DNA of 64,000 bases, taken from Clostridium sp. CAG:793. Lineage in GTDB: Bacteria; Bacillota; Clostridia; TANB77; CAG-508. The DNA lies in assembly GCA_000433915.1 (NCBI GenBank), contig HF993639.1, positions 61,633 through 125,632 of the forward strand, read 5' to 3'. The translations under genes were made by a program, and so were the position numbers. Below the pieces are notes generated by a model. That model ran no database searches, was not told the origin of the DNA, and saw nothing but the letters and a program-made list of their open reading frames with translations. Below are positions 356-58,808 of the stretch, piece after piece (position 1 is the first letter of the stretch; every line of letters starts with the position of its first letter).

Positions 356-419
356 CAATTTAGCAAATACCCTATATTACTTGCGGATTCTTATTCGCAT
401 ACAAAGGAGTTGTCGTTTT

Positions 420-1802
420 ATGGCAAAGCAATTTGTTCTTCGCGCTGGTGCACTTCTTAGCCGTAAAAAAGCCTATTTGGCTTTTGGCGAAGCTGGTGAC
501 CATCTTGTCATTCCTATGGCAATCGTTGAAAAGCTCCACTATTTTGAAGGAGCTAAGCGGAATATGGCAGCTGAGGTAAGTGAATATATTAAATCTTGCC
601 CCAATGATGAGCTTCTTGGAAAAGGTTATGTTCAGAGCAATGGTACTATCCTTTCTGTTAAGTATGTCGAGGATATTTCTTCTGAAGTGAACCGCTTTAC
701 GGAGCTTTCTCTTCAAGATAAGCAGTGTCTCCAGATTTGCTTGAATCTTCAGAAAGAGTTTCCTGATGATGAGGTCATTCTTGTTTCTAAAAGTACTCCT
801 CTTCTGCTTAAGGCTGAAATCTTGAAGATCAAGTCTATGGATGCTCCTGATATGATTTATCCTTCGATTGATAGGCAGTATTCTGGAGTAACCAACTATA
901 CCATTAGTACAGAGAGTTTCAATGCTCTGATGACTTCTGGAAAAGTCTTTTTTCAAAATGACGATCCTAGCCATCTGTTGTATCCGAACGAGTTCTTAAT
1001 GGTTCATGATGAAAGCTATAATTCTGGTGTAAAGCTTGCAAGATTTGATGGAACCCATATTGTTGGGCTGAATTACCAGCTTAACAAGGATTATCATTCT
1101 AAGAACGCTGAGCAGAATTTCCTGACTGAGGCATTGTTTACACCTCCGGAAGTTGCTCCTCTGGTCATTGTCAAAGGTCCTGCTGGTACAGGCAAAACTT
1201 ATGTGACAGTCACAGCAGCTTTGGAGCTAACCAAATATGGCTCAGGAAATTACAGCCATGTTTATGACAGAATCATTATTGCTACTCCTACGGTAAGTGG
1301 TGGTAATGAGGAAATCGGTTTCCTCCCAGGTGACGTAAATCAGAAAGTTGGCCCCTATCTCGGCGGAATTTATGATAATATCATAAATTCTTTCGTACGA
1401 AAGAATCGCGAAAAAGCTGGGACTTATGGAGCTTCTATTGACCTTAATGCTGCACAGGACTGTTTCAATCAACTCATGGATGATGGCACTATATCTATCC
1501 AGCAGCTTGGTACCGTTGCCGGTCACTCGTTCGAGAACTCTATCATCATTGTCGATGAAGCCCAGAACGTTGATCCCAACTATTTCCTTGACATCGTGAC
1601 TCGAACTGGTGAAGGTTCTAAGCTGGTAGTCTTAGGTGATCCATCTCAGGTTAAATCACCCAAACTGGACAGCCGCATTAACGGCATCAACTACATGATG
1701 GAGTGCTGGAAAACAAGCCGCCTGGCATACCAGATTTCCATGAATGCAGACAAGGTTGTTCGTGGTTCTCTGTGCCAAGAAGCACTTAAGCTCATGAACT
1801 AA
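420..1802 (+). CDS. PhoH-family ATPase with a degenerate (catalytically dead) N-terminal PIN-like domain, on a GC-anomalous cassette
   Basis: Walker A GPAGTGKTYV, PhoH signature RIIIATPTVSGGNEEIGFLPGD, Walker B IIIVDEAQN, GSKLVVLGDPSQV. The N-terminus aligns to YlaK/PhoH2 PIN (FVLRAGALL for YVLDTNVLL; LVIPMAIVEKLH for VVIPxVVLEELD) with the catalytic acidic residues replaced. Visibly higher GC and GC-ending codons than the neighbours. Start moved to the ATG with an SD; the track ORF begins at 381. Confidence 0.8.
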   Translation: MAKQFVLRAGALLSRKKAYLAFGEAGDHLVIPMAIVEKLHYFEGAKRNMAAEVSEYIKSCPNDELLGKGYVQSNGTILSVKYVEDISSEVNRFTELSLQDKQCLQICLNLQKEFPDDEVILVSKSTPLLLKAEILKIKSMDAPDMIYPSIDRQYSGVTNYTISTESFNALMTSGKVFFQNDDPSHLLYPNEFLMVHDESYNSGVKLARFDGTHIVGLNYQLNKDYHSKNAEQNFLTEALFTPPEVAPLVIVKGPAGTGKTYVTVTAALELTKYGSGNYSHVYDRIIIATPTVSGGNEEIGFLPGDVNQKVGPYLGGIYDNIINSFVRKNREKAGTYGASIDLNAAQDCFNQLMDDGTISIQQLGTVAGHSFENSIIIVDEAQNVDPNYFLDIVTRTGEGSKLVVLGDPSQVKSPKLDSRINGINYMMECWKTSRLAYQISMNADKVVRGSLCQEALKLMN

Positions 1803-1835
1803 AACGCATCATTATTTTACCAATAGGCACAACTC

Positions 1836-1870
1836 GCCCCTGGTCCATTACGGGCCAGGGGCCTTTTTTA
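1836..1870 (+). terminator. GC-rich intrinsic terminator of the PhoH-like cassette
   Basis: cccctggtcc-atta-cgggccagggg stem followed by tttttt; it overlaps the stop of the convergent flavoredoxin-like gene. Confidence 0.7.
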
Positions 1871-2446
1871 TCTTTTATTTTTATTCTTCTTTTTTTGTAC
1901 TGAAAATCCAAACTTTCCTATTTTTTTTCCTAATGCGTAATATCCTCCATTTGCATATGCCATTAGCTTACATTTTGATATATCAAAAGCACCTTTTTCA
2001 TCTATATATTGCTCATCTGCATCTATGCAAAGCACTTTTGCCATAAACATTGTATGGCTTCCTAAATCAACTATTTTTTCTACTTTACATTCTATTGATA
2101 CTGGGCTTTCTTTTATTAATGGACATTGCACCAAATTTGCTTTTTCCTTCGTTAGATTCATTTCTTTAAACTTATCCACATTTGCTCCACTTTTTACTCC
2201 GCACCAATCGGTTTTATATGCTAACTTTTCTGTTGTTAGATTAATAACAAATTCTTTACTATTTTTTATTATTTCATAAGAGTATCTGCTTTTTCTAACT
2301 GATATATACACCATTGCTGGCTCAGTATTCAAAATTCCTGTCCATGCAACAGTGATTATATTTGATTTTTCCATATCTCCGCAACTTACCATTACTGCTG
2401 GAATTGGATATTCAAAAGTTCCTGCTTTCCACATTACCTTACTCAT
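1868..2446 (-). CDS. Flavin reductase-like / flavoredoxin (FMN-binding split-barrel) protein
   Basis: 192 aa with typical flavin reductase-like domain composition. ATG preceded by an AGGAGGAAAAT SD. Native AT-rich codon usage. Confidence 0.6.
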   Translation of the reverse strand: MSKVMWKAGTFEYPIPAVMVSCGDMEKSNIITVAWTGILNTEPAMVYISVRKSRYSYEIIKNSKEFVINLTTEKLAYKTDWCGVKSGANVDKFKEMNLTKEKANLVQCPLIKESPVSIECKVEKIVDLGSHTMFMAKVLCIDADEQYIDEKGAFDISKCKLMAYANGGYYALGKKIGKFGFSVQKKKNKNKR

Positions 2447-2458
2447 ATTTTCCTCCTA

Positions 2459-4522: not shown

Positions 4523-4647
4523 ACTCTTTTCCTTTTATGTAATTCTATTGAATTATAACATATTATGTCGTTCTAGTTAATATCTTTATTAAAATTTTAT
4601 ATATTTCTAATTATTGTCAATATTTTTCAATAAATTTGGCAAATTTA

Positions 4648-4676
4648 TTGACTTTATGTCAAATTTGTGATATTAT
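4648..4676 (+). promoter_or_regulatory. Sigma-A type promoter for the 119-aa GC-anomalous ORF
   Basis: TTGACT (4648-4653), a 17-nt spacer, TATTAT (4671-4676). A ttgac-ttta-tgtcaa palindrome overlaps the -35 and may be an operator. GGAGG SD 7 nt before the ATG. Confidence 0.45.
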
Positions 4677-4713
4677 TAATAATGCACTTTGATAATATTT
4701 TGGAGGTTTTTTT

Positions 4714-5073
4714 ATGAAAGAGAAGTTTAAGATCACGGCTCTCGTTGTTCGGAAGAAGGAGGCTAATCAGCCTAAACCTTGTGAAGTGGTAATCTTCAGG
4801 AATGGGCACGATCCTGTCCTTTTCAACGCAACCGAGAAAGATGTTGGCGATGCAATCATCTGCGCTGGAAAGCTCCTTAGTGGAGGACTTAAAGCAATAG
4901 AGAATGACAAGTTCTCTGTGACGGACTTCATCGTCGAGATGCCTACCGGCTTTAACGTCTTACTTGGTGTTGGATCCGGTCGTGTTGTCCCCTTCATCGG
5001 AGAGTCTTGCAGAAGCTTTCCCGGTGCTCTTCTCTATGTAGGTTCCATCCTGCAAAACGGTTTGAGCAGCTAA
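4714..5073 (+). CDS. Hypothetical protein (119 aa) on a GC-anomalous single-gene cassette
   Basis: Strong SD GGAGG. Visibly ~45% GC with codons such as CTC, GGC, CGG and GTC that are rare in the neighbours. No recognisable motif. Confidence 0.55.
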   Translation: MKEKFKITALVVRKKEANQPKPCEVVIFRNGHDPVLFNATEKDVGDAIICAGKLLSGGLKAIENDKFSVTDFIVEMPTGFNVLLGVGSGRVVPFIGESCRSFPGALLYVGSILQNGLSS

Positions 5074-5112
5074 TTCATGCCAGAGGCACTTACTCCTGGC
5101 TACTCCAAGGCA

Positions 5113-5172
5113 AAGAGGCGGACATTGTCCACTGCGACTTTTATGTTGCGGACAATGTTCCGCCTCTTTTTT
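5113..5172 (+). terminator. Intrinsic terminator of the 119-aa cassette
   Basis: aagaggcggacattgtcc ... ggacaatgttccgcctctt long stem followed by ttttttt. Confidence 0.7.
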
Positions 5173-5303
5173 TATATAAAGATTGATATTTTTTATAATT
5201 TTGTGATAATATATTGTTGCAATCTAAAATAAATGTACATAATATTATTGGTTCATAGGTTCCAATAAAAAGCCTAAATAAATATTATAAAGGAAGGTAT
5301 TTT

Positions 5304-7538
5304 ATGGATTTCAAACAATGGGAAGGTTTTGATAGAGCTGGAGAATGGACTAAAGAAATTGATGTCCGTGGATTTATTCAAGCAAATTATACTCCTTATG
5401 ATGGAGATGAAAGTTTTTTAGTAGGTCCTACTGAAAAAAGCACTAAGTTATGGAACAAAATTCAAGCTCTTTATGAAGAAGAAAGAGAAAAAGGTGTATT
5501 AGATGTTGATACAAAAACACCTTCAAGCATTGATGCATATGCACCAGGTTATGTTGATCAAGATTTAGAAACTATTGTTGGTCTTCAAACAGATGCTCCA
5601 TTAAAAAGAGCTATTATGCCTAATGGAGGTATACGTATAGTTGAAAAATCATGTGAATCTTATGGTTATAAAGTTGACCCAGAAGTAGAATATATTTATC
5701 ATAATTTAAGAAAAACTCATAATGATGGAGTTTTCGAAGTATATACACCAGATATTAGAGCAGCTAGAAGTGCTCATTTATTAACAGGTTTACCTGATGG
5801 ATATGGACGTGGAAGAATTATTGGAGATTATAGGCGTGTAGCACTTTATGGTGTTGATGTTCTTATTTCAGAGAAAAAAGATGAATTAAATATTTTAGAT
5901 ACAGATGAATTTACTTCTGATATTGTTCGTGATAGAGAAGAAATATCTGATCAAATAGCTGCTTTAACAGCATTAAAATCTATGGCTGCTAAATATGGAT
6001 TTGATATTTCAGTTCCTGCAAAAGATGCTCATGAAGCTTTCCAATGGACATATTTTGCTTATCTTGGTGCTGTAAAAGATCAAAATGGTGCAGCAATGTC
6101 TATGGGAAGAGTTTCTACATTCTTAGATATTTATGTTGAAAGAGATTTAAAAAATGGTACACTAACTGAAGAAATAGCTCAAGAGCTTATGGATCAATTT
6201 GTATTAAAATTAAGAATGGTAAGATTCCTTCGTGCTCCAGAGTATAATGCATTATTTAGTGGTGATCCTGTTTGGGTAACAGAAAGTATTGGTGGTATGG
6301 GAGTTGATGGTAGAACTTTAGTTTCTAAGAATTCATTCAGACTTCTTCATACATTAGAAAATCTTGGACCTGCCCCAGAACCAAATATTACAGTTCTTTG
6401 GTCTAAGAATTTACCTATTGCATTTAAGAAATATTGTACAAAAATTTCAATAAAAACATCTTCTATTCAATATGAAAATGATGATTTAATGAGAGTTACA
6501 CTTGGTGATGATTATGGAATAGCTTGCTGTGTTTCTGCAATGAAGATTGGTAAGCAAATGCAATTCTTCGGTGCAAGAGCAAATTTAGCAAAAGCATTAC
6601 TTTATGCTATAAATGGTGGTGTTGATGAATTATCAGGAAAACAAGTAGCACCTAAATTTGAGCCAATCAAGGGTGATTATCTAGATTATAACGAAGTTAT
6701 GGAAAAATATGATGCAATGATGGATTATGTTGCTAAAATATATATTAAAGCTTTAAATGCTATTCATTATATGCATGATAAATATTCATATGAAGCTCTT
6801 GAAATGGCTTTACATGACAGAAAAATTTATAGAACTATGGCATGTGGAATTGCTGGATTTTCTGTTGCTTGTGATTCTCTTTCAGCAATCAAATATGCTA
6901 AAGTTAAGGTTATACGTAACGAACAAGGCTTAGCTGTTGATTATGAAATTGAAGGTGATTATCCTAAGTTTGGAAATGATGATGATAGAGTTGACGAAAT
7001 TGGAGTTAACCTCGTAAAAACATTTATGAAAAAATTAGAGAAACATCAAATTTATAGAGATGCTACCCCTACTCTATCTATTCTTACTATCACATCAAAT
7101 GTTGTTTATGGAAAAAATACTGGTGCTACTCCTGATGGAAGAAAGGCTGGTGCTCCATTTGCTCCTGGTGCAAATCCTCTTCATGGAAGAGATGTTGAAG
7201 GAAGTTTAGCTTCAATGAACTCAATAGCAAAATTACCTTATGAATATGCAGAAGATGGTATTTCTTATACATTTGCCATAACACCTGGAACCCTTGGTCA
7301 TGATGAAGATACTCAAGTTAATAATCTTGTAAGTATGCTTGATGGATATTTCATGCAAACAGGACATCATATAAATGTAAACGTTTTTGATAGAAGTTTA
7401 TTAGTTGATGCAATGAATCACCCTGAAAAATATCCAAATTTAACAATTCGTGTATCAGGATATGCTGTTAATTTTGTAAAATTAACTCGTGAACAACAAG
7501 AAGAAGTTATTGCAAGAACTATTCAAGAAAAAATATAA
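5304..7538 (+). CDS. pflB: Formate C-acetyltransferase (pyruvate formate-lyase)
   Basis: Glycine-radical motif RVSGYAV near the C-terminus; active-site [12 protein letters not shown]; about 744 aa. Confidence 0.92.
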
Positions 7539-7558
7539 TTCTATTTTAGGAGAATAAA

Positions 7559-8275
7559 ATGCTTAAAGGTCGTATTCATTCATTTGAAAGTTTTGGAGCT
7601 GTTGATGGTCCAGGAATAAGATATATTGTATTTATGCAAGGTTGCCACCTTAAGTGTAAATACTGTCAAAATCGTGATACATGGGACGTTTCAAGTCCTG
7701 ATAGTATTGAATGTACTACTGATGAAGTTTTAAATAAGATTTTAAAATATAAAAATTATATTAAGGCTTCTGATGGTGGTGTAACGATTAGTGGTGGTGA
7801 ACCTTTACTTCAGCCAGACTTTCTTATTGAATTATTTACTAAATTACATGATCATGGTATATCTACATGTATTGATACATCAGGAATGTTTCCTCTTACA
7901 GATAAAATTAAAAAAGTAATTGATGTAACCGATATATTCCTACTTGATATCAAATGTATTAATGATGATATTTGTACATGGCTTACTGGTCATTCAAATA
8001 AACTTGAACTTGAATTTGCTAGGTATATTAGCAATTGTGGTAAAAGATTATGGATTAGACAAGTTTTAGTTCCTGGTATTACTGATAAAGAAAGTGATCT
8101 GGTATTATTACGTGATTTTCTAAAAACTATAAATGTAGAAAAATTTGAATTTCTAGGATATCATGACCTAGGCAAATACAAGTGGGAAAAACTAGGGCTT
8201 AAATATGAATTAGAAAATACTCCTATTGCTACAAAAGATGATTTAGATAGAGCATATTCAATAATAAACAGTTAA
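7559..8275 (+). CDS. pflA: Pyruvate formate-lyase activating enzyme (radical SAM)
   Basis: CHLKCKYCQN (CxxxCxxC) near the N-terminus; immediately downstream of pflB. Confidence 0.9.
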   Translation: MLKGRIHSFESFGAVDGPGIRYIVFMQGCHLKCKYCQNRDTWDVSSPDSIECTTDEVLNKILKYKNYIKASDGGVTISGGEPLLQPDFLIELFTKLHDHGISTCIDTSGMFPLTDKIKKVIDVTDIFLLDIKCINDDICTWLTGHSNKLELEFARYISNCGKRLWIRQVLVPGITDKESDLVLLRDFLKTINVEKFEFLGYHDLGKYKWEKLGLKYELENTPIATKDDLDRAYSIINS

Positions 8276-8278
8276 ATA

Positions 8279-8312
8279 AAAATACACTTCGTCTTGAAGT
8301 GTATTTTTATTT
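8279..8312. terminator. Bidirectional intrinsic terminator between pflA and the convergent minus-strand gene
   Basis: acacttc-gtct-tgaagtgt hairpin flanked by A/T runs. Confidence 0.6.
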
Positions 8313-8978
8313 CTTATTTAATATATGGTTATCCCATTCTGATTTATATAATTCACCAGCATATTCTTTAAATTCATTGTATATTGTTTTAGTTTCATTT
8401 TCATCTGATGTTTGAATATACAGTATATATTTTAATAGTCCTTGTTCATCATATTGTTGTGCAACTACTATCTTACTTTTATCTGGACTTTTCCAATTTT
8501 CAAAACAATATTTTATTGAGTTATCTATAAAGTCATCATTCTTTTCTTTTGGTTTCATTATTAAAGTAAATTCTAATTTCTTATATTGTCTTGATTTTAT
8601 TCGTATATATCCAGTATTTTCTTCATCAAATTCTTTTGATATTACTTTAAATTCCATTCCATATTTGCTTGCTAGATTAGACTCAATATAATCATTTGCT
8701 TTACTATCGGCACTTCCATATACATATATTAATAATCCTGCAATAAGTACTAAACATCCTATTATAGCTATTATTGATAATCGTACAATAAATTTTACTG
8801 CTTTATCAGATATCCTGGCAATATTATCGATTTTCTTCATATCTTCTTTGTCAGCTAGTTCTGTTATATCAAATCCATACGTATTTATTATGTCTTGTTT
8901 TTTTGCGTTTTTCCATTTTTCAATTTCTTCTAGGTCTTTTTTCCTAGTTACATCTTCATTTGTTTTATTTTCTTTCAT
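8307..8978 (-). CDS. Hypothetical membrane-anchored protein
   Basis: One TM segment (IIAIIGCLVLIAGLLIYVY). The start is set at the internal ATG with an AAAGGA SD; the track ORF begins at an upstream TTG. Confidence 0.5.
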   Translation of the reverse strand: MKENKTNEDVTRKKDLEEIEKWKNAKKQDIINTYGFDITELADKEDMKKIDNIARISDKAVKFIVRLSIIAIIGCLVLIAGLLIYVYGSADSKANDYIESNLASKYGMEFKVISKEFDEENTGYIRIKSRQYKKLEFTLIMKPKEKNDDFIDNSIKYCFENWKSPDKSKIVVAQQYDEQGLLKYILYIQTSDENETKTIYNEFKEYAGELYKSEWDNHILNKK

Positions 8979-8991
8979 AATAATACATCCT

Positions 8992-9837
8992 TTACTTTTG
9001 AGCAAATTTCTTTATTCCAAATGTTATAAAATATATGATTCCTGAGATTATAACTATCATTGGTCCTGTTGGAATATTATTTGCATAATATGATATTATT
9101 AGTCCTGAGATTCCTGAGATTAATGCAAATAATATTGAAAATACATGATAATTTCTCATATTACTTGCAATGTTTCTACTTGATGCAGCTGGTAATATTA
9201 TCATTGAGTTTATTAGTAGTATTCCTACCCATCTAATTGATAACATTACCATTATTGCTATTGATACAGCAAATAAATTGTCTATTAATTTTACATTTAT
9301 TCCTTTACTTTTTGCAAGCATTGGATTTATGCTTATTGCATTTAGTTTATTAAATAGCTTTGTCCAGAATATTAGTACTAGTACAAATGCTATTACTAAA
9401 TATATTATTTCTGATGTTGATATATTTAATATGTCTCCTACTAAATAGCTAGAATATTTGTTAAAACTTCCTGTTTGAGCTAATATTGCAAGTCCCAGAG
9501 CAATTGAGATTGATGAGAATACGCTTATTATTGTATCAGCTCCATACGAAGTTCTATTTTTTACCCAATTTAATAGTAGTGCAAATATTATAGCAAATAT
9601 TATCATTGATATGTTCATATTGCTTATTCCAAGTAGGGTGCCTAGCGCAATTCCTGTTAATGCTGAATGGCCTAATGCGTCTGAAAAGAATGCCATTTTG
9701 TTATTTACTATCATTGTACCTAACATTGCAAATATTGGTGATACTAATAAAATTGCTATAAACGCATTTTTCATAAATGTATATTGCATAAAATCAAATG
9801 GTAGCAAAGTTTCTAGTATGTTATATATTATGTCCAT
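8992..9837 (-). CDS. Metal (Zn/Mn-type) ABC transporter permease
   Basis: ABC-3 family permease composition (MDIIYNILETLL...AFFSDALGHSALTGIALG), polytopic. Confidence 0.8.
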   Translation of the reverse strand: MDIIYNILETLLPFDFMQYTFMKNAFIAILLVSPIFAMLGTMIVNNKMAFFSDALGHSALTGIALGTLLGISNMNISMIIFAIIFALLLNWVKNRTSYGADTIISVFSSISIALGLAILAQTGSFNKYSSYLVGDILNISTSEIIYLVIAFVLVLIFWTKLFNKLNAISINPMLAKSKGINVKLIDNLFAVSIAIMVMLSIRWVGILLINSMIILPAASSRNIASNMRNYHVFSILFALISGISGLIISYYANNIPTGPMIVIISGIIYFITFGIKKFAQK

Positions 9838-16766: not shown

Positions 16767-16977
16767 TTATGTATTCTCCTTTCCAACTTTTGGCCTATTA
16801 GAAGATATAAGTCTCCTCATTTACCACATCTATATTATACCACGATTTTGAAAATAAGTAAAGGAATTTTTAAAGAAATAATTTTCTTTCTTATGATAGT
16901 TTTTAACCGCCTTTGGGGCTTATTATGATTATTATTATAATTCTTTATTCGTTTTACATAATTTTTATTAATTTGTA

Positions 16978-17006
16978 TTGCTAATATTATGTAAATGTGG
17001 TATAAT
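16978..17006 (+). promoter_or_regulatory. Sigma-A type promoter (extended -10) for the two-gene GC-anomalous module
   Basis: TTGCTA (16978-16983), a 17-nt spacer, TGgTATAAT (-10 at 17001-17006). Confidence 0.45.
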
Positions 17007-17067
17007 AAAATGTACATACGTTAGTATGAATAGTACATTGAAAAATTAGAAAGGTTGTTGAGTTTTC

Positions 17068-17754
17068 ATGGCAATGAACATTATTCAAGTAAAAGATGGA
17101 AAAATGATAAAGTTTTCGGATGGCACTATGATTCCTCCAAGCGGACCTCGGTATCATCGTCACACTACTCGCTCAGGCATATGTGAATATCTTTCAACAG
17201 GAAATACGTATCTTCCCGCGGTGCCGCAGTTTATAAGCCTTAATAAGGCTTATAACTTGGAAAGTCGCCTCTTCGAAGCTTCTTTGCAAAGTGGCATTCT
17301 CATGCTTAAAAATTTGGCCACTAAGGACCTTGTAGTCTTAAAGGACTCGGTTTTAACAATTTACAATGATGGAAAGTTGGTAAAACCAGCCGAATTTGTT
17401 ACAATGCCTGGTGACCTGACAGGTACTGCGGTTATTCGCAACAACATGGCAAGCCGAGATAACTTCAGTTGGGACAATTCTCAATTTAAAAGTTTTCTAA
17501 AAAATCATGGGATCATTACTCCCTTGCATCAGGATCCCAACAGACTTTACCATGTTGGCAAAGATGATACTCTTCTTTCAAACGGCCAGCAAATTGTCGA
17601 CCCATTTGAAAAGCAAAATGTCGTTTTAGTCAATGCCACATGGAGCATACTTGTGGAGAAAAAAATAGAAGGAAATTGCAAGATTTCAAAATGCACTTTC
17701 CGTTCTCTGCAAAATCCTACAACTATTGCAGGATTACCTCATGTACATATTTAA
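17068..17754 (+). CDS. Hypothetical protein A (228 aa) of a GC-anomalous two-gene module
   Basis: Visibly ~42-45% GC against the <30% neighbours, with GC-ending codons. No signal peptide and no recognisable motif. Confidence 0.6.
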   Translation: MAMNIIQVKDGKMIKFSDGTMIPPSGPRYHRHTTRSGICEYLSTGNTYLPAVPQFISLNKAYNLESRLFEASLQSGILMLKNLATKDLVVLKDSVLTIYNDGKLVKPAEFVTMPGDLTGTAVIRNNMASRDNFSWDNSQFKSFLKNHGIITPLHQDPNRLYHVGKDDTLLSNGQQIVDPFEKQNVVLVNATWSILVEKKIEGNCKISKCTFRSLQNPTTIAGLPHVHI

Positions 17755-17775
17755 TGTATTAAAAAGGAGTTTTGT

Positions 17776-18450
17776 ATGTTTATTACAGTTCAATTTGATG
17801 AAAGAACTAATGTTCCCAAAGCCAAGGGAAAAGTTTACATCTCTAGCTATGAACGTGGTCAGCAGGATAACATTAGTGCAAAATCAAAGAATGAGCAAAA
17901 GGCATTTTTGACATATCCCCGAAAGCTGGATCTTGTGTCTTTTAAGGTAGAGATCATATCTGATACCGAGTTTCATTGCTCGGCACCCAATTACGGGCAA
18001 ACTGGCATCTTTAAGAACGGTATCTTCGAGGTTGTTGATGGTAAAAATATCATTGCCCGTTATCGTTGCACACCCACAAGTCAGATTGACGGTACTTTGT
18101 CTTTCTGCTCTGGTTTTCCTTCTAACTTTCCGAAGATCTCCTTCCGGAATCCGGTCTTCGATAAGTATCTAAGAGATCATTCCATTTTTAAGATGGAAGC
18201 ACGGCCTTCTGATGGGATTTACCCTATCCATGATGGAGAGAAGATCTTTTCAGATGGAGTCGTTAAAAAGTGCAATGGCATCTCTTACAAAGTAAGTCAT
18301 TCCACCTGGGTTATCATCTGTGGTAAAACTGTGGATGACTCGGTCCACTTTAAAACCTGTGGAGCTTGCTATAGGTATTCCAGCCGATTGATTTCTGCCA
18401 AGAATCCTATGGAGCTTGCTCTTCCCGTTATCAACCTTTCGAAGCTATGA
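17776..18450 (+). CDS. Hypothetical Cys-rich protein B (224 aa) of the same module
   Basis: 21 nt downstream of gene A with an AAGGAG SD. Seven Cys including CGAC. Same anomalous composition. Confidence 0.6.
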   Translation: MFITVQFDERTNVPKAKGKVYISSYERGQQDNISAKSKNEQKAFLTYPRKLDLVSFKVEIISDTEFHCSAPNYGQTGIFKNGIFEVVDGKNIIARYRCTPTSQIDGTLSFCSGFPSNFPKISFRNPVFDKYLRDHSIFKMEARPSDGIYPIHDGEKIFSDGVVKKCNGISYKVSHSTWVIICGKTVDDSVHFKTCGACYRYSSRLISAKNPMELALPVINLSKL

Positions 18451-18470
18451 TTGGCTGCCAATCATAGTGT

Positions 18471-18524
18471 AGCTCCCCCGAGCAGGTACGATATTTCGCG
18501 CCTAGCTTGGGGGAGCTATTTTTA
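18471..18524 (+). terminator. Strong intrinsic terminator of the two-gene module
   Basis: tagctccccc ... gggggagcta stem followed by ttttt; it is preceded by a separate perfect palindrome at 18444-18466. Confidence 0.7.
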
Positions 18525-18541
18525 TTTATATTTTATATTTA

Positions 18542-34541: not shown

Positions 34542-34644
34542 TTCATGCCTTTCATTTTTTTACTATATTTTATATCAAAACTATTGATAAATCAAGTATA
34601 ATATGTTATACTTATAATTACTTTAATATTGGAGGTTAAATCTG

Positions 34645-34863
34645 ATGAACATTGGAATGAAACTTCGGCTTTCGGAAAGCAGCACTGTTGCTAATCGCGC
34701 CCAGCGCAGAAAGGAGAAGTTTTCCCGCTCGGAAGATAACTGTGCATTGCCACACTATCAAAAAGGTCTGAATGGTGAGGCAAGGCACCACTCGGCTGGC
34801 TCCCATTTTATTTCCCCCGGAGTCAGCCGGTGCAACTTCAAAAAAAGTAAGAAGTTCAAATGA
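34645..34863 (+). other. GC-rich standalone transcription unit: either a 72-aa basic ORF or a structured small RNA
   Basis: About 220 nt of visibly high GC in an AT-rich intergenic gap. Several internal hairpins (cggctggctcc...ggagtcagccg; aacttc...gaagtt). GGAGG SD before the ATG. Ends in its own GC-rich terminator. The protein has no motif and an odd composition. Confidence 0.35.
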
Positions 34864-34868
34864 CTCAT

Positions 34869-34899
34869 GCCGGAGGTTTTCCTCCGGCCCCTTTTTTTA
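34869..34899. terminator. Intrinsic terminator (gccggagg-tttt-cctccggc + T-run) overlapping the mfd stop
   Basis: Perfect 8-bp GC stem followed by ttttttt; convergent with the mfd 3' end. Confidence 0.65.
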
Positions 34900-40371: not shown

Positions 40372-40372
40372 A

Positions 40373-44975: not shown

Positions 44976-45003
44976 TATCTTACTCCTTTCACTGTTTTAT
45001 CTT

Positions 45004-46131: not shown

Positions 46132-46160
46132 TATTATTTCCTCCTGGCAATATTTTGTTT

Positions 46161-47786: not shown

Positions 47787-47813
47787 ATATTCTCCTTTCT
47801 ATGTCCTTATTTT

Positions 47814-48272
47814 TTACCAATATCTTAAAACATATTTTATTGTTTTTCCGAAGTTTGGTTCTTCTTTATTTGTTCCTGTTGAAATTTTTATTTTGATTAT
47901 TTTCTTTCCGTTTTCTTCGAAGTTATCTGCTTCAAATTCGGCTATTGTTCTTGCTATCTTTACATTTCCTCTATATATTGCATTTTCACTTTGTTTATAT
48001 GTGTATTTACTTCCATTGCTCAAGACTATCTCTACTGTTTTTTCTCCATTTTGCTCAATCGTTGTTGCTGTTCCTTGTTTACTTTCTTTGATATCTTGTA
48101 CAAAATATGAGTTAAATTTATTAAATTCTTCTGAACTTACAGAGTTTGTATTTATCTTAGATAAATTAGAGTATACAAAGTTACTTAAGTATGCTAATAA
48201 TCCAAGTGTTGCTGAGAAAACCAAGACATATATAATTAGTGCTGTTAGTGTTATACCTTTCTCACTTTTCAT
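47814..48272 (-). CDS. Pilin-like protein with non-canonical class III signal (MKSEKG|ITLTA..., no Glu5)
   Basis: Short basic leader ending in G, then a ~22-residue hydrophobic segment; lies in the T4P cluster. Confidence 0.6.
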   Translation of the reverse strand: MKSEKGITLTALIIYVLVFSATLGLLAYLSNFVYSNLSKINTNSVSSEEFNKFNSYFVQDIKESKQGTATTIEQNGEKTVEIVLSNGSKYTYKQSENAIYRGNVKIARTIAEFEADNFEENGKKIIKIKISTGTNKEEPNFGKTIKYVLRYW

Positions 48273-48295
48273 CTTGTCAAATTCCTTTCTTTGTA

Positions 48296-48715
48296 TTATT
48301 CTCTAATTTTTATTTTGTTCATTTTAAATTCTCTTTCTTGTCCATTTACTGAGTATGTTACTGTTATTTTTATTTTCTTTACTATGTCTTCTGCTGATTC
48401 TATTTCATCAGAATATTTTTCTATTGTATATGTTATTGTACTATGATTTCTGCTTTTATCAAAATACTGATTGATCTTTGACTGCTCAATTAATGATTGG
48501 ACTTTTGTATCTGTTATATCATCATAGTTTTCCAAATCAATCTGTTCAAATATCTCTGTAACACATCCAATAGCTACTTCATGTATCTTGGCAATTGCAA
48601 CATTCATATATATTTGATAATACAGTGTTACTATTATTGCACTTGCTGCTACAAATATAATTAATCCTCCTGCAACATCTATTCCAGTTGCTCCTTTTTC
48701 ACTTTTTATTCTCAT
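48296..48715 (-). CDS. Pilin-like protein (MRIKSEKG|ATGID..., Asp at +5)
   Basis: Same leader architecture as its two neighbours. Confidence 0.55.
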   Translation of the reverse strand: MRIKSEKGATGIDVAGGLIIFVAASAIIVTLYYQIYMNVAIAKIHEVAIGCVTEIFEQIDLENYDDITDTKVQSLIEQSKINQYFDKSRNHSTITYTIEKYSDEIESAEDIVKKIKITVTYSVNGQEREFKMNKIKIRE

Positions 48716-49510
48716 TTAAACACCTATTTGTGACAAAAATATCATAATCCATACAATAGCATTTGATACAGCTAAGTAAAATGCTACTGGTGGCTTTTTA
48801 TCATATTTTTTCCCTTTATTTATAATTTTATTTATTAAACTTTTTATTGAGATTATTAATAGTGTTAATATAATTGTTAATATTGTTCCTATTTCGAATG
48901 TAAAGAAATTTATTATTAAACAAAAAATTACTAGACTTATATTATAGTCATCTTTTGTTGTTTTCTTTATTTTGTATGTGCTTGCAACAGTTAGTATCGC
49001 TGTTACTATTAAGTAAATTATTATTCTGTTTATATTAAAGTTTTCATAAAAATTGTATTGATATATGAATTCTAATGCTGAGATTGCTATTCCATAGATC
49101 AATACTCCTTTATGTATTTCTCTATGTTCCTTGTCTATTCCTGCTATTAGAAATACAAATACTATATATAATACTCCAAGTGCATATTCTATGCCTTTCC
49201 ATGTATATACATTTTGAATATTTATACCTATTCCTGCTGCTAATATTACGAAAGCCAAGCCACATAATACTTCTATTATTTCGTATCTTGGACTTATTTT
49301 TGTTTTGCAGTATCTACATCTTCCACCAAGGAATGCATAACTTAATACTGGTATCATGTCTAAAAAAGATAATTTATGATTGCATTTAGGGCAATATGAA
49401 TGTTTATAAACAATGTCCTGATGTAATGGGATTCTATATGTTGCAAGTGTTAAGAAACTTCCAAATACTGTTCCCATCATAAATATTATTATGTATAGTA
49501 ATATATTCAT
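48716..49510 (-). CDS. pilD: Prepilin peptidase (A24 family)
   Basis: N-terminal Zn-binding CPKC...CRYC; polytopic membrane protein; 264 aa. Confidence 0.85.
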   Translation of the reverse strand: MNILLYIIIFMMGTVFGSFLTLATYRIPLHQDIVYKHSYCPKCNHKLSFLDMIPVLSYAFLGGRCRYCKTKISPRYEIIEVLCGLAFVILAAGIGINIQNVYTWKGIEYALGVLYIVFVFLIAGIDKEHREIHKGVLIYGIAISALEFIYQYNFYENFNINRIIIYLIVTAILTVASTYKIKKTTKDDYNISLVIFCLIINFFTFEIGTILTIILTLLIISIKSLINKIINKGKKYDKKPPVAFYLAVSNAIVWIMIFLSQIGV

Positions 49511-56105: not shown

Positions 56106-56294
56106 ATATTATCACCTCTGCTTTCTTCGTAAGTATATCATTTTATTTTTTATTTTTCAATTATTTTACATATTCAATTTTTTAGAAATATTAGGCTTAT
56201 TTCATATTATATCGTTAACGATATTTAGATACCTTTGTTATATTTAAAAAAATTGTTTTTTACTTTGATTTTTTAGTAAAGTGAGGTATAATAT

Positions 56295-56549: not shown

Positions 56550-56551
56550 TT

Positions 56552-57058
56552 ATGAAACTTAATATTGTTTTGGTTGAACCAGAGATACCTCAAAACACTG
56601 GAAACATTGCACGTACATGTGCAGCTATTGGAGCTAAATTGCATTTAGTTCATCCTTTAGGTTTTATTCTTTCTGAAAAATCGGTCAAGCGTGCTGGTTT
56701 GGATTATTGGGATAAGCTTGATATTGAAGAACATTCTTCTTTAAATGATTTTCTATCCAAGTATCCTCCTGAAAGTAATAATATGTTTTTCTCTACTACA
56801 AAAGGTAAACATATTTATTCTGAACCTGATTATTCTAGTATGGATGAAGTTTTTCTTCTTTTCGGTAAAGAAACTAAAGGACTTCCTGAAGATCTTCTTT
56901 TAAAGTATATAGATAATACTATTCGTATTCCTATGAGAGAAACTTTAAGATCTTTAAACTTATCCAATTCCGTGTGTGTTGTTGCTTATGAAGTTTTTAG
57001 AAAGTGTAATTTTTCTGGTTTAGAAGAAATTAGTTCATATTTTGATAATAGTTTGTAG
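56552..57058 (+). CDS. trmL: tRNA (cytidine/uridine-2'-O)-methyltransferase (SPOUT)
   Basis: MKLNIVLVEPEIPQNTGNIARTCAAIGAKLHLVHPLGF is the typical TrmL N-terminus. Confidence 0.85.
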   Translation: MKLNIVLVEPEIPQNTGNIARTCAAIGAKLHLVHPLGFILSEKSVKRAGLDYWDKLDIEEHSSLNDFLSKYPPESNNMFFSTTKGKHIYSEPDYSSMDEVFLLFGKETKGLPEDLLLKYIDNTIRIPMRETLRSLNLSNSVCVVAYEVFRKCNFSGLEEISSYFDNSL

Positions 57059-57230
57059 TATCTAAAAAATGAGTCATGCTTACTAGTGTAAGTATGACAT
57101 ATTTTTTGTTTATTTTTCACTTATTTTTATAATTTCTATGTAAATTTTGATATCGGTATGTTTTATCATCAACGATTTTTAATCTAATTTGCTATACTCG
57201 GTAAAAATCCAAAGAAATGAGGTATTTATT

Positions 57231-57497
57231 ATGACACTTTCTAATGCAGTAAAGCAAAGAATTGTTGACCTAGCTACTGGTAATCAAATTACAATTCACA
57301 AATTGGCTCTTAATTCTGGTGTTCCTTATTCGACTCTTAGTAGTTTCCTTAGTGGAAAATGCATGAGTATAACTTTGACAACTCTTTTACATATATGTGA
57401 AGGTTGCAATATTGAACTTAAAGATTTTTTTGATGATAATCTGTTTAAAAACATTTCTTCTGACACACAAAACCACGTATCAACTCGAAAGAAGTAA
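57231..57497 (+). CDS. Small HTH (XRE-like) protein, paralog 2 (most diverged)
   Basis: MTLSNAVKQRIVDL...; GAGGT SD. The track ORF is 5'-extended to 57189. Confidence 0.6.
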   Translation: MTLSNAVKQRIVDLATGNQITIHKLALNSGVPYSTLSSFLSGKCMSITLTTLLHICEGCNIELKDFFDDNLFKNISSDTQNHVSTRKK

Positions 57498-57501
57498 TTA
57501 G

Positions 57502-57756
57502 ATGGTTTTATCTGTCGCTATTAGGCAAAGAATTATAAATTTGACCAAATTGAAGAATATTAGTTTAAAAGAATTATCTAGAAGAGCCGGTGTACCATAT
57601 CCAACATTGATAAGTTTTATGTCTGGTGCTAATAAGACTATGAACTTGTCTACTCTTTATGGTTTGTGTATTGGATTAGATATCGATTTAGTGGATTTTT
57701 TCGATAATCGCTTATTCCAAGATGTTCTTGATGAACATGAAAAGGAAACAAAGTAG
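57502..57756 (+). CDS. Small HTH (XRE-like) protein, paralog 3
   Basis: MVLSVAIRQRIINL...LDEHEKETK; near-identical architecture to paralog 1. Confidence 0.65.
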   Translation: MVLSVAIRQRIINLTKLKNISLKELSRRAGVPYPTLISFMSGANKTMNLSTLYGLCIGLDIDLVDFFDNRLFQDVLDEHEKETK

Positions 57757-57770
57757 GTTATGGTTATGTA

Positions 57771-57802
57771 AAAAGCGATAGCAAATTGCTATCGCTTTTT
57801 TA
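57771..57802 (+). terminator. Intrinsic terminator after the HTH paralogs
   Basis: aaaagcgatagc-aaat-tgctatcgcttttttat. Confidence 0.65.
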
Positions 57803-58007
57803 TATTTTGATTTTATAGTTTATTTTACTTGTCAATATAAAATATAAAATGTTTATTGAAATCTTCATTTGTGATTGGATATATTTTTATATTTTTCTCT
57901 TTACGAACTTGTATATATTTTAATATTGATAAAAATATTTGTCAAATTAATTTGTGATATATCATTAACTAAACTATAAATTATTTTAATTTATTTTGTT
58001 TTTTCTC

Positions 58008-58037
58008 TTGACAAATTGTTATTTATCGTATTATAAT
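58008..58037 (+). promoter_or_regulatory. Promoter of tRNA-Leu
   Basis: TTGACA (58008-58013), an 18-nt spacer, TATAAT (58032-58037), about 20 nt upstream of the tRNA 5' end. Confidence 0.5.
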
Positions 58038-58057
58038 AAGTATTGTTCGTAATTAAT

Positions 58058-58144
58058 GCAGATATGGCGGAACTGGTAGACGCACAGGACTTAAAATCCT
58101 GCGGTAGCGATACCGTCCCGGTTCGATTCCGGGTATCTGCACCA
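58058..58144 (+). tRNA. tRNA-Leu (anticodon UAA), class II with long variable arm, CCA encoded
   Basis: Acceptor stem GCAGATA/TATCTGC; anticodon stem-loop CAGGA-cuUAAaa-UCCUG; long variable arm CGGTAGCGATACCGTC; T-arm CCCGG-TTCGATT-CCGGG; 3' ACCA. Confidence 0.85.
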
Positions 58145-58150
58145 TAAAAA

Positions 58151-58190
58151 CCTCAAGTAGTTCGTAAGATATGCTTGAGGCTTTTATTTT
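58151..58190 (+). terminator. tRNA terminator
   Basis: cctcaag ... cttgagg stem followed by cttttatttt. Confidence 0.6.
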
Positions 58191-58226
58191 GTATAATTTA
58201 GATTTCAATGATGTTATATAAAAATG

Positions 58227-58274
58227 CCAAAACACGCATACCAGATATACTTATCTCCGGTATGCGTGTTTTGG
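58227..58274 (-). terminator. Terminator of the minus-strand GC-anomalous gene
   Basis: ccaaaacacgcatacc ... ggtatgcgtgttttgg stem (16 bp) followed by a T-run on the minus strand. Confidence 0.65.
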
Positions 58275-58280
58275 TCGCAA

Positions 58281-58709
58281 TTAGCTCTTCTTACAGATGT
58301 ACATATCAACCTCATCATCGCCGTCAATGATTGCGATGACAAAGTCCTTGTTTCCGTGCAGTTTGACTCTTCGGTAATCCTCCTCTACGCCTAGTTCGTA
58401 CTTATTGCCCACTTTTTCCAGCTTTGCTGGGATGTCTTTGAAATTCCCACAGTCATGGCAGATGATCTGTTTCTTATCGCTTATATCGAACCCCTCGATG
58501 TCCACGACAATTTTTATCAATAGCAGATCCTCTCCTTTGCTAAATAAGATGGCCACAAATGGCTGCTCTAGGTTCATCTCCTTGCAGTCATTGTACATAA
58601 AACGATCAAGCCTTTTTCCAAGGCACTTTAAAATCTGTGGCCAGAGAAGTGGCTTTTCCTTCCGCTGAGCCTCTAAAATTGCTTTCTTTGCTTTAATTGT
58701 GTTATTCAT
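58281..58709 (-). CDS. Hypothetical protein (about 142 aa) on a GC-anomalous single-gene cassette beside tRNA-Leu
   Basis: GGAGG SD; consensus promoter TTGCAA-17-TATAAT upstream on the minus strand; visibly ~45% GC; CHDCG motif; no family recognised. The track ORF starts at an upstream in-frame ATG (58724). Confidence 0.55.
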   Translation of the reverse strand: MNNTIKAKKAILEAQRKEKPLLWPQILKCLGKRLDRFMYNDCKEMNLEQPFVAILFSKGEDLLLIKIVVDIEGFDISDKKQIICHDCGNFKDIPAKLEKVGNKYELGVEEDYRRVKLHGNKDFVIAIIDGDDEVDMYICKKS

Positions 58710-58808
58710 TGTTAACCTCCACAATTGCTTTTTTCTGAAACGGACTACCTATATTATATCATTCTTTTGTTTCTTTTGCAAGTTATGTAAACATTAGTCT
58801 TAATAAAA

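What the first reader, a model, noticed from the sequence alone, without database searches (positions are those of the whole stretch)
381..58735. Five compositionally foreign, self-contained expression cassettes scattered through intergenic gaps of an AT-rich core chromosome
The cassettes at ~300-1870, ~4640-5172, ~16975-18525, ~34600-34900 and ~58225-58735 are visibly ~45% GC with CTC/GGC/GCG/CGG-type codons. They sit between native genes whose codons are almost all AT-ending. Each carries its own strong Shine-Dalgarno and a long perfect GC-rich hairpin terminator, and four of the five carry a near-consensus sigma-A promoter (TTGxxx-17-TATAAT). None disrupts a core gene. None has integrase, transposase or repeat scars in view. 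Single-gene foreign insertions with complete private regulatory signals, recurring five times in 64 kb, is not the usual pattern of genomic islands. It suggests either a dispersed accessory gene set acquired by a common mechanism or engineered insertions.
Basis: seen in the sequence. Interest (0 to 1): 0.7.

Follow-up and report, generated by a model that had tools for sequence, protein, structure and literature searches.

The report
Naturally acquired GC-rich orphan gene cassettes
Five GC-richer gene units sit between the AT-rich core genes of the uncultured human-gut bacterium Clostridium sp. CAG:793; they are natural, species-wide, mostly orphan genes, most likely picked up one at a time from other organisms, and they are not engineered or strain-specific.

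Summary
Their six ORFs have GC3 0.36-0.54 against 0.16 +/- 0.035 for 56 native ORFs (z 5.6-10.7). Each unit has a promoter-like site with an extended -10, a Shine-Dalgarno sequence and a GC-rich terminator hairpin.

The window is Clostridium sp. CAG:793. All six proteins occur exactly in dozens to hundreds of independent metagenome assemblies. Wherever I fetched DNA (C1, C2, C3, C4, C5), the gene sat at the same locus. This rules out engineered, chimeric or strain-specific inserts.

Related species lack them. More than 20 relatives keep dut directly next to carD (119-320 bp) where C3 sits, and three relatives lack C1 and C2. C4 and C5 could not be tested in relatives.

C2, C3b and C5 have no homologues outside this lineage, and none in phage, plasmid or defence collections. 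C1 is a PIN-PhoH protein. The units share no boundaries, repeats or homology.

Best reading: independent horizontal acquisitions of self-contained, moron-like orphan genes.

Three further results:
- C3 exists as deeply diverged alleles (dS 0.4-0.5) inside near-identical chromosomes.
- PIN-PhoH homologues are GC-rich single-gene units at different loci in other AT-rich contigs.
- C4 may be a structured RNA.

Functions remain unknown.

The parts
1..189 (+). 3' end of cassette C0, a 228-aa orphan protein. The full gene is L001:790-1476.
   Evidence: GC3 0.33. No Pfam, PHROG, PADLOC or NCBIfam match.
229..279 (+). C0 terminator-like hairpin followed by a T run
   Evidence: Sequence. Partial fold of -13.5 kcal/mol.
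327..355 (+). C1 promoter-like site, TTGTAA-17-TATAAT with TG
420..1802 (+). C1 CDS, a 460-aa PIN + PhoH ATPase (PhoH2/YlaK-type architecture)
   Evidence: Pfam PIN_4 3e-11 and PhoH 6e-43. phrog_2765 1e-64 over the full length. PDB 3b85 PhoH domain. GC3 0.39.
1836..1870 (+). C1 intrinsic terminator: 11-bp stem with 9 GC pairs, -25 kcal/mol
4648..4676 (+). C2 promoter-like site, TTGACT-17-TATTAT with TG
4714..5073 (+). C2 CDS, a 119-aa lineage-restricted orphan
   Evidence: Only 4 clusters (83-97% identity) among 5.8 billion proteins. No family match. GC3 0.52.
5112..5175 (+). C2 terminator, long hairpin of -37.6 kcal/mol
16978..17006 (+). C3 promoter-like site, TTGCTA-17-TATAAT with TG. It lies in DNA that is absent from relatives.
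17068..17754 (+). C3a CDS, a 228-aa orphan and distant paralogue of C3b, hypervariable between conspecific genomes
17776..18450 (+). C3b CDS, a 224-aa orphan with a hypervariable N-terminal part and a conserved C-terminal CxxC region
18469..18528 (+). C3 terminator of -39.5 kcal/mol, about 20 nt from the stop codon of the convergent dut gene
34584..34612 (+). C4 promoter-like site, TTGATA-17-TATACT with TG
34645..34863 (+). C4, either a 72-codon ORF for a basic protein preceded by GGAGG, or a structured small RNA; undecided
   Evidence: The body without its terminator folds at z = -3.5, with 0 of 200 shuffles as stable. The C2 body gives z = -0.95. GC by codon position is 0.45/0.45/0.53, without the lowered second-position GC seen in C1, C2, C3a and C5. 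No Rfam match.
34869..34898 (+). C4 terminator: 8-bp stem with 7 GC pairs, -17 kcal/mol
58058..58144 (+). Native tRNA-Leu(TAA), convergent neighbour of C5. It accounts for part of the fifth GC peak.
58233..58274 (-). C5 terminator: 19-bp perfect stem, -33.6 kcal/mol
58281..58709 (-). C5 CDS, a 142-aa species-restricted orphan
   Evidence: Full HMMER search of 1.84 billion representatives found only fragments of itself. GC3 0.54.
58753..58781 (-). C5 promoter-like site, TTGCAA-17-TATAAT with TG

Best explanation
The five loci (six with C0) are separate, naturally acquired accessory genes of Clostridium sp. CAG:793. Each is an autonomous transcription unit: a sigma-A promoter with an extended -10, a short leader, a strong Shine-Dalgarno sequence, one ORF (two at C3) and a strong intrinsic terminator that insulates the neighbours. 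Each sits in an intergenic gap of the core chromosome.

Shown:
- Their composition and codon usage are non-native.
- They are fixed at the same loci across the species.
- C1, C2 and C3 are absent from the corresponding sites of related species.
- Four proteins (C2, C3b, C5 and, by family scans only, C0) have no relatives outside the lineage.
- The units share no boundaries or homology.

Inferred:
- They entered one by one by horizontal transfer from mid-GC donors that are not in current databases. The route was probably illegitimate or homology-facilitated recombination of incoming DNA, or survival of 'moron'-type units after a carrier element decayed.
- They were kept because they are expressed independently of host operons.

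Since acquisition they have evolved faster than the core. C2 and C1 show about 2x higher dS, as expected for GC-rich DNA under AT-biased mutation, and C2 shows a 7-30x higher dN. C3 is held as deeply diverged, recombining alleles. That pattern is typical of genes in conflict with phages or competitors, but the function is inferred, not shown.
For: - Composition: GC3 z-scores of 5.6-10.7 and non-native codon choice.
- Terminator composition: the foreign composition includes the terminator stems, with 7-9 GC pairs scored for the C4 and C1 stems against 3-4 in native terminators, and C2, C3 and C5 fold at -34 to -40 kcal/mol.
- Natural origin: exact proteins occur on 2-402 contigs from ENA, Logan, JGI and NCBI.
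- Fixed locus: the same context is seen in 10 assemblies for C0-C1-C2, in further ones for C4, C3 and C5.
- C3 insertion: dut and carD are adjacent (gap 119-320 bp) in more than 20 related lineages with carD 64-88% identical. C3 occurs only in contigs with carD 100% identical.
- C1 and C2 insertion: three relatives with 59-65% identical PBP lack both at the syntenic position.
- Orphan status: for C3b, for C2, for C5. The nearest C1 homologue is 46% identical.
- Mobile-element and defence collections: no hits in phage records, IMG/VR or plasmids for C2, C3a/C3b and C5. PADLOC gives no significant hit to any of the six apart from weak helicase-domain hits to C1.
- Independence: no shared repeats or boundaries and no homology between cassettes.
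- The same architecture recurs with different orphan genes in relatives: L011:2358-3215 and L012:9348-9662.
- Rates: dS and dN values are.
- Orientation: 5 of 6 units are head-on to replication against 10 of 56 native genes (p = 0.002). This suggests they have not been shaped by the long-term strand bias of core genes.
Against: - No donor was found for any cassette, so transfer is inferred only from composition, phyletic pattern and empty sites.
- The empty-site comparison is at genus or family distance. Exact junctions, target duplications and the origin of the AT-rich promoters could not be resolved.
- C4 and C5 could not be checked in other species.
- The polymorphism spectrum of C1 (third-position GC>AT 25 vs AT>GC 18) is less AT-biased than simple neutral decay predicts. 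The native genes used as baseline are also off expectation (28 vs 50), so the test is inconclusive.
- PIN-PhoH homologues are GC-richer than their neighbours in four other AT-rich contigs. This could mean repeated import, or selection that maintains the composition.
Confidence: 0.7

Rival explanations
1. Engineered or synthetic insertions.
For: The layout looks designed: promoter, Shine-Dalgarno sequence, ORF with non-host codons, perfect hairpin terminator.
Against: The organism is an uncultured gut MAG. Identical proteins and junctions occur in many independent metagenome assemblies from different studies. Natural polymorphism and divergent alleles exist. The proteins match no known parts.
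Confidence: 0.005
2. Assembly or binning chimeras: mid-GC reads from other organisms joined into an AT-rich contig.
For: The source is a metagenome-derived genome.
Against: The same junctions were recovered by different assemblers and samples. Junction DNA is identical between contigs through promoter, ORF and terminator.
Confidence: 0.005
3. Relics of larger mobile elements. Prophages or islands integrated at these sites (for example next to tRNA-Leu) and decayed, leaving only the self-expressed moron-type gene.
For: The architecture matches the moron definition: differing GC, own promoter and terminator (PMC3594210). C5 lies about 140 nt from tRNA-Leu. C1 matches a full-length PHROG family.
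Against: There is no phage, integrase or att remnant at any of the loci. No IMG/VR or phage-record hit exists for C2, C3 or C5. Phage PIN-PhoH proteins are at most 29% identical to C1, further away than the bacterial homologues at 35-46%. Clean decay to a single gene five or six times over is unparsimonious.
Confidence: 0.15
4. A dedicated common capture mechanism, integron-like or otherwise recombinase-dependent, moves the cassettes, and the 3' hairpins serve as recombination sites.
For: Every unit ends in a long near-perfect hairpin. Similar units occur at other intergenic sites in relatives.
Against: The hairpins share no sequence or core motif, and each is followed by a T run like an ordinary terminator. 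There is no array and no integrase. The cassettes carry their own promoters, unlike integron cassettes. Positions are fixed within the species.
Confidence: 0.04
5. The GC-rich composition is maintained by selection rather than being a donor signature. For example, it could make transcripts stable or resistant to AU-preferring RNases, possibly including the PIN-PhoH enzyme itself.
For: PIN-PhoH homologues only 35-62% identical to each other are all GC-richer than their neighbours in four other AT-rich contigs (GC3 0.27-0.61, against neighbouring genes of 0.11-0.25 in L089, L092 and L093 and flanking DNA of 20-25% GC in L091). C1 polymorphism is not strongly GC>AT biased.
Against: Those homologues sit at different loci, and C1 is absent from CAG:793's relatives at the syntenic site, which fits mobility. 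The dS of C1 and C2 is about 2x that of the flanks, as neutral decay predicts. No depleted motif was identified. The test is underpowered.
Confidence: 0.08
6. C4 is not a protein gene but a roughly 250-nt structured small RNA with its own promoter and terminator.
For: The body without its terminator folds at z = -3.5, with 0 of 200 shuffles as stable, against -0.95 for the C2 mRNA. GC by codon position is 0.45/0.45/0.53, without the lowered second-position GC seen in C1, C2, C3a and C5. The ORF product is low-complexity and basic. Gene callers called it on few contigs: the exact ORF is on record on only 2.
Against: GGAGG lies 8 nt before an ATG that opens a 72-codon frame. No Rfam family matches even at E <= 1. 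Only two variable positions are available, so neither covariation nor a dN/dS test is possible.
Confidence: 0.4

Closest known systems
Phage 'morons' (Hendrix; reviewed in PMC3594210)
   Same: A single extra gene with GC content unlike its neighbours, flanked by its own promoter and terminator and expressed independently of the surrounding operons.
   Different: Morons are defined within phage or prophage genomes. These units sit directly between core chromosomal genes with no phage genes nearby and have no homologues in phage collections, apart from distant PhoH relatives.
Horizontally imported species-specific ORFans (e.g. E. coli ORFans, PMC13012023)
   Same: No homologues outside the species, unknown function, short length, fast evolution and atypical composition. 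Origin is inferred from phyletic pattern rather than from an identified donor.
   Different: Here they are fixed in the species rather than rare in the pangenome. They are GC-richer, not AT-richer, than the host.
PhoH2 / YlaK-type PIN-PhoH proteins (NCBIfam NF053827, PHROG 2765)
   Same: C1 has the N-terminal PIN domain and C-terminal PhoH P-loop ATPase over its full length.
   Different: C1 scores 92.8 bits against a curated cutoff of 680 for the PhoH2 equivalog, so it is not an orthologue. Its nearest homologue is 46% identical. RNase or helicase activity is not tested.
Integron gene cassettes
   Same: Single-gene units ending in an imperfect or perfect hairpin.
   Different: Integron cassettes lack promoters, lie in arrays next to an integrase, and have attC sites with conserved cores. 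None of these features applies here.
Hypervariable conflict loci kept by balancing selection and recombination (defence or immunity genes, surface antigens)
   Same: C3 alleles differ by dS 0.4-0.5 within genomes whose flanks differ by dS 0-0.02. The alleles are mosaic and divergence is concentrated at the N-termini.
   Different: No defence, toxin or surface domain is detectable. dN/dS is about 0.24 overall. There is no DGR-type adenine bias.

Membership tests
Phage moron | [quoted passage not shown] | tested here: met
   GC3 z = 5.6-10.7
Phage moron | Own promoter and own terminator | tested here: met
   Consensus-level sites only. Transcription was not measured.
Phage moron | Located within a phage or prophage genome | tested here: not met
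   The neighbours are core genes (PBP, pflB, carD, dut, mfd, HU, tRNA-Leu). No phage genes lie nearby.
Integron gene cassette | attC site with conserved R/L cores at the 3' end | tested here: not met
   The hairpins share no sequence and are followed by T runs.
Integron gene cassette | Promoterless ORF in an array next to intI | tested here: not met
   Each unit has its own promoter-like site. The units are dispersed over 58 kb. No integrase-sized ORF or family match lies near them.
Genomic island | Multi-gene block with mobility genes and flanking direct repeats, often at a tRNA gene | tested here: not met
   The units hold one or two genes and have no repeats or recombinase. Only C5 is next to a tRNA gene.
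PhoH2 (RNA 5'-3' helicase, NF053827) | PIN + PhoH domain architecture | tested here: met
   PF13638 at residues 12-141 and PF02562 at residues 227-459.
PhoH2 (RNA 5'-3' helicase, NF053827) | Score above the curated equivalog cutoff | tested here: not met
   92.8 bits against a cutoff of 680.
PhoH2 (RNA 5'-3' helicase, NF053827) | ATP-dependent RNA unwinding and cleavage | not testable with these tools
   Requires biochemistry.
Diversity-generating retroelement target (considered for C3) | Variation confined to adenine positions of a template repeat, with a reverse transcriptase nearby | tested here: not met
   The substitution spectrum is symmetric and transition-dominated, with third codon positions most affected. 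There is no template repeat.
Known RNA families, Rfam 15 (considered for all five regions) | Covariance-model match at the gathering score | tested here: not met
   Only tRNA-Leu matched in the window. Nothing matched at E <= 1 in C4.
Known anti-phage defence systems (PADLOC) | Significant profile match | tested here: not met
   Only weak helicase-domain hits to C1 (best 7e-7, partial). Nothing significant matched the others (best E 0.011, to C5).

The most novel reading that the evidence does not exclude
AT-rich gut Clostridia may carry a distinct class of autonomous, GC-rich, single-gene 'chromosomal morons'. PIN-PhoH would be a recurrent passenger. These units would enter core intergenic gaps without any recombinase of their own. 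Their GC-rich bodies and very strong terminators would be a selected design, for example transcripts that outlast AU-rich host mRNAs or escape an AU-preferring RNase such as the PIN-PhoH enzyme, rather than a passive donor signature. C3 would then be a new two-gene conflict (defence or immunity) module under balancing selection, and C4 a new structured RNA.
Probability: 0.1. Interest if true: 0.7.

Novelty: new member of a known kind. Interest (0 to 1): 0.33.

Why it matters
The finding does not reveal a new mechanism, but it is a clean case study. An uncultured gut species carries about one foreign-composition orphan gene per 10 kb of core chromosome. Each is packaged for autonomous expression, fixed species-wide, and has no donor among 5.8 billion proteins.

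It bears on the open question of where bacterial ORFans come from. Here an ancestral empty site, conserved in more than 20 relatives, shows import rather than in-situ birth for C3.

It also gives three concrete leads:
- C3a/C3b, a hypervariable two-gene locus, is a candidate conflict system.
- PIN-PhoH genes are recurrently mobile and GC-rich in AT-rich hosts.
- C4 is a possible new small RNA.

Tried and rejected
- RNA genes as the cause of the GC peaks. Rfam at gathering score and ARAGORN found only tRNA-Leu. A permissive Rfam scan of C4 found nothing.
- Whole-unit fold z-scores of about -5 were driven by the terminators. After trimming, only C4 stays structured.
- Phage origin. tblastn against 50,697 phage records, IMG/VR scans and PHROGs gave nothing except distant PhoH matches.
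- Plasmid origin. There were no hits.
- Defence systems. PADLOC gave nothing meaningful.
- Structure-based annotation. AlphaFold2 models of C3b and C2 had pLDDT 32-34 and were unusable, so no fold search was run.
- Shared boundary motifs or repeats. There are none.
- Homology between cassettes. Only C3a/C3b are related.
- C2 against the orphan at the equivalent position in L012. They are unrelated.
- DGR-type mutagenesis for C3. Rejected on the substitution spectrum.
- Polarised polymorphism test for neutral decay against maintained GC. Inconclusive.
- Exact insertion junctions for C3. Relatives are too diverged beyond the carD promoter.
- Literature on CAG-793. Only microbiome association studies were found.
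Full report
IDENTITY OF THE WINDOW. Exact look-up of six cassette proteins and four neighbours shows that the window is Clostridium sp. CAG:793, an uncultured human-gut bacterium (proteins CCY99595 to CCY99652). Every one of these proteins is on record in public assemblies. The window averages 29.4% GC.

THE OBSERVATION. A 150-nt GC scan finds only five segments whose maximum reaches 0.47: 1-1921, 4667-5225, 17028-18603, 34583-34944 and 57990-58756. The fifth also contains a native tRNA-Leu(TAA) at 58058-58144, the only RNA gene found.

With frames corrected, the ORFs are:

| Unit | Coordinates | Strand | Length | GC3 |
|---|---|---|---|---|
| C1 | 420-1802 | + | 460 aa | 0.39 |
| C2 | 4714-5073 | + | 119 aa | 0.52 |
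| C3a | 17068-17754 | + | 228 aa | 0.36 |
| C3b | 17776-18450 | + | 224 aa | 0.43 |
| C4 | 34645-34863 | + | 72 codons | 0.53 |
| C5 | 58281-58709 | - | 142 aa | 0.54 |

The 56 native ORFs have GC3 0.161 +/- 0.035 with a maximum of 0.27. This gives z = 5.6-10.7 and Mann-Whitney p = 1.6e-8. Native genes use TTA for 57% of Leu, AGA for 83% of Arg, and GGA, GCA and TCA. The cassettes prefer CTT, GGT/GGC, GCT and TCT and spread Arg over CGN codons.

Each unit has a 10/12 sigma-A-like site with a TG extended -10, a GGAGG-type Shine-Dalgarno sequence and a GC-rich hairpin followed by a T run. The hairpins fold at -17 to -39.5 kcal/mol. Five native terminators fold at -13.9 to -20.5 with AT-rich stems. 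Promoter-like hexamer pairs are barely enriched over shuffles in this AT-rich DNA (121 vs 105 +/- 10), so the promoters are plausible, not demonstrated. A sixth unit, C0 (228 aa, GC3 0.33), ends at window position 189.

NATURAL, FIXED, NOT STRAIN-SPECIFIC.
- Ten contigs from different human-gut assemblies carry C0, C1 and C2 in the same places.
- C4 lies between the SpoU methylase and mfd in three further contigs, with two nucleotide differences.
- C3 lies between carD and dut in all conspecific contigs.
- C5 lies between HU and tRNA-Leu in all contigs examined.

Engineering and assembly chimerism are therefore excluded. So is the idea of strain-specific inserts.

INSERTIONS RELATIVE TO OTHER SPECIES. 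A carD-anchored scan of metagenome contigs returned 63 loci. In more than 20 lineages with carD 64-88% identical, dut is followed directly by carD with a gap of 119-320 bp. C3a and C3b occur only where carD is 100% identical.

The carD promoter region aligns across relatives up to about window position 16870, after which homology is lost. The inserted DNA is therefore at most about 1.67 kb (16870-18541) and includes the AT-rich C3 promoter. Some other lineages hold unrelated genes of native composition in the same gap.

Three relatives found through the PBP gene (59-65% identity; mouse, rabbit and another MAG) lack C1 and C2 at the syntenic positions. They do carry other GC-richer orphan units with the same promoter, Shine-Dalgarno and terminator layout: L011:2358-3215 (285 aa, GC3 0.46) and L012:9348-9662 (104 aa, in the position equivalent to C2 but unrelated to it). 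C4 and C5 could not be tested in other species.

WHAT THE GENES ARE. C1 is a PIN + PhoH ATPase. The evidence is Pfam, phrog_2765 at 1e-64 over the full length, and a match of the PhoH domain to PDB 3b85. It falls far below the NCBIfam PhoH2 equivalog cutoff. Its nearest homologue is 46% identical, and phage homologues are at most 29% identical.

The others have no family in Pfam, NCBIfam, PHROGs or PADLOC:
- C3b has only three other clusters (83% identity) among 5.8 billion proteins.
- C2 has four clusters at 83-97% identity.
- C5 has none beyond fragments of itself in a full HMMER search of 1.84 billion representatives.
- C2, C3a/C3b and C5 gave no phage, IMG/VR or plasmid hits.
- C3a and C3b are distant tandem paralogues (E = 5e-5). 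No other cassettes are related to each other.
- AlphaFold2 models of C3b and C2 were unusable, with pLDDT 32-34.

NO SIGN OF A COMMON INSERTION MECHANISM. There are no shared repeats or boundary motifs, no recombinase, and no common hairpin sequence. What the units share is their layout and a similar non-native codon preference. Five of six units are head-on to replication against 10 of 56 native genes (p = 0.002). This differs from the native strand bias but not from a random 50:50 orientation, as expected for later additions.

EVOLUTION AFTER ACQUISITION.

| Comparison | Flanking genes | Cassette |
|---|---|---|
| Window vs slightly diverged lineage L022 | dS 0.09-0.15, dN 0.003-0.013 | C2: dS 0.23, dN 0.087 |
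| Window vs L025 | dS 0.009-0.017 | C1: dS 0.033 |
| Window vs L018 | dnaG 99.5% and carD 100% nt identical | C3a: dS 0.51, dN 0.12; C3b: dS 0.41, dN 0.10 |

A roughly two-fold excess of dS is what AT-biased mutation predicts for GC-rich sequence. This is my own calculation from GC3 0.15 against 0.4-0.5. The extra dN indicates relaxed or diversifying selection.

C3 is different. In L018 the C3 promoter, the leader, the last 150 nt of C3b and the terminator are 98-100% identical to the window, but the coding bodies are only 83-86% identical. Divergence starts at the third codon. It is symmetric and transition-dominated, and third codon positions are the most affected. This rules out a DGR. Twelve C3b alleles are mosaic, with variable N-termini and an invariant C-terminal half. 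A third allele is seen in L054. This is deep allelic polymorphism with recombination. It suggests a conflict-related role, which is an inference.

C2 and C5 are 96-99% conserved within the species. Among ten conspecific contigs, the nucleotide diversity of C1 is 0.016 against 0.002-0.008 for native genes.

A WIDER PATTERN. PIN-PhoH homologues of C1 (35-46% identical to it, 37-62% to each other) sit at different loci in four other AT-rich contigs. Each is GC-richer than its surroundings:

| Locus | GC3 of the PIN-PhoH gene | Surroundings |
|---|---|---|
| L089 | 0.38 | neighbouring genes GC3 0.12-0.25 |
| L092 | 0.61 | neighbouring genes GC3 0.13-0.24 |
| L093 | 0.33 | neighbouring genes GC3 0.11-0.22 |
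| L091 | 0.27 (GC 0.36) | flanking DNA GC 0.20-0.25 |

In L089 and L092, where I read the flanking sequence, the gene has its own promoter-like site and GC-rich terminator. This favours repeated import of a mobile gene. It leaves open that the composition is selected. A polarised polymorphism test on C1 was inconclusive.

C4. It has GGAGG 8 nt before an ATG and a 72-codon frame. Its body without the terminator folds at z = -3.5, with 0 of 200 shuffles as stable, against -0.95 for C2. GC by codon position is 0.45/0.45/0.53, without the lowered second-position GC seen in C1, C2, C3a and C5, and the product is low-complexity. It may be a structured small RNA. No diverged homologues are available to test this.

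VERDICT. It is wrong on engineering and on strain specificity, and unsupported on a common mechanism. The units are best filed as moron-like, horizontally imported orphan genes (PMC3594210; PMC13012023). That makes them new members of a known kind, with unknown functions. The hypervariable C3 locus, the recurrent GC-rich PIN-PhoH units and the possible C4 RNA are the parts worth following up.

Noticed in passing
window 1-279 (full gene at L001:790-1476): A sixth unit, C0, lies upstream of C1. It encodes a 228-aa orphan protein (GC3 0.33) with its own promoter-like site and terminator. Whether C0 and the PIN-PhoH gene C1 work together is unknown.
   Followed up: partly
window 17068-18300 vs L018:3502-4740, L054: The C3a/C3b coding bodies differ by dS 0.4-0.5 between genomes whose flanks, promoter and terminator are 98-100% identical. 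The alleles are mosaic and most variable at the N-termini.
   Followed up: yes
L089:5001-6371, L092:5001-6401, L093:5001-6344, L091:399-1757: PIN-PhoH homologues in four other AT-rich contigs are each GC-richer than their surroundings (GC3 up to 0.61) and sit at different core loci. In L089 and L092, where the flanks were read, each has its own promoter-like site and GC-rich terminator.
   Followed up: partly
L011:2358-3215, L012:9348-9662, L092:3414-3788, L093:1016-1615: Related and other AT-rich lineages carry their own, unrelated GC-richer orphan ORFs (GC3 0.34-0.46). The L011 and L012 units show the same promoter, Shine-Dalgarno and terminator layout; the flanks of the other two were not examined. 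None matches any family.
   Followed up: partly
window 34615-34866: The C4 body is significantly structured (z = -3.5) and has flat GC by codon position. It may be an undescribed small RNA rather than a 72-aa protein gene.
   Followed up: partly
window 5304-9005 vs L011-L013: The block of native composition holding pflB, pflA and a 232-aa ORF lies between the PBP gene and the ABC transporter. It is absent from that position in three related MAGs, so the neighbourhood of C2 also differs in ordinary gene content.
   Followed up: no
L042-L050, L053, L067 (dut-carD gap): Other lineages have 1.6-3.1 kb of unrelated genes of native composition (a 437-aa membrane protein and others) in the same dut-carD gap that holds C3 here. 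This intergenic site has been changed repeatedly.
   Followed up: partly
L099:700-1600 vs window 57400-58060: One low-coverage contig is identical to the window through HU, C5 and tRNA-Leu. It then switches at the 5' end of the tRNA gene to pyrophosphatase and DpaA genes instead of the two HTH genes and the SpoU-family methylase gene at 56552-57058. This is either a strain rearrangement at the tRNA or an assembly join at a repeated tRNA.
   Followed up: partly
window-wide: Cumulative GC skew falls steadily across the window, and 46 of 56 native genes are on the minus strand, which is therefore the leading strand. Five of six cassette units are on the plus strand, head-on to replication.
   Followed up: yes
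window 43629-49510: A run of minus-strand genes looks from the N-terminal sequences like a type IV pilus or competence-pseudopilus cluster (ATPases, platform protein, prepilin-like proteins). If it is functional in DNA uptake, it could be relevant to how foreign DNA enters. Not verified with family searches.
   Followed up: no
L072, L082, L087: Three long contigs (0.4-1.3 Mb) show carD, dut and neighbouring genes broken into many short ORFs. This probably reflects frameshift-rich long-read assemblies rather than pseudogenes.
   Followed up: no
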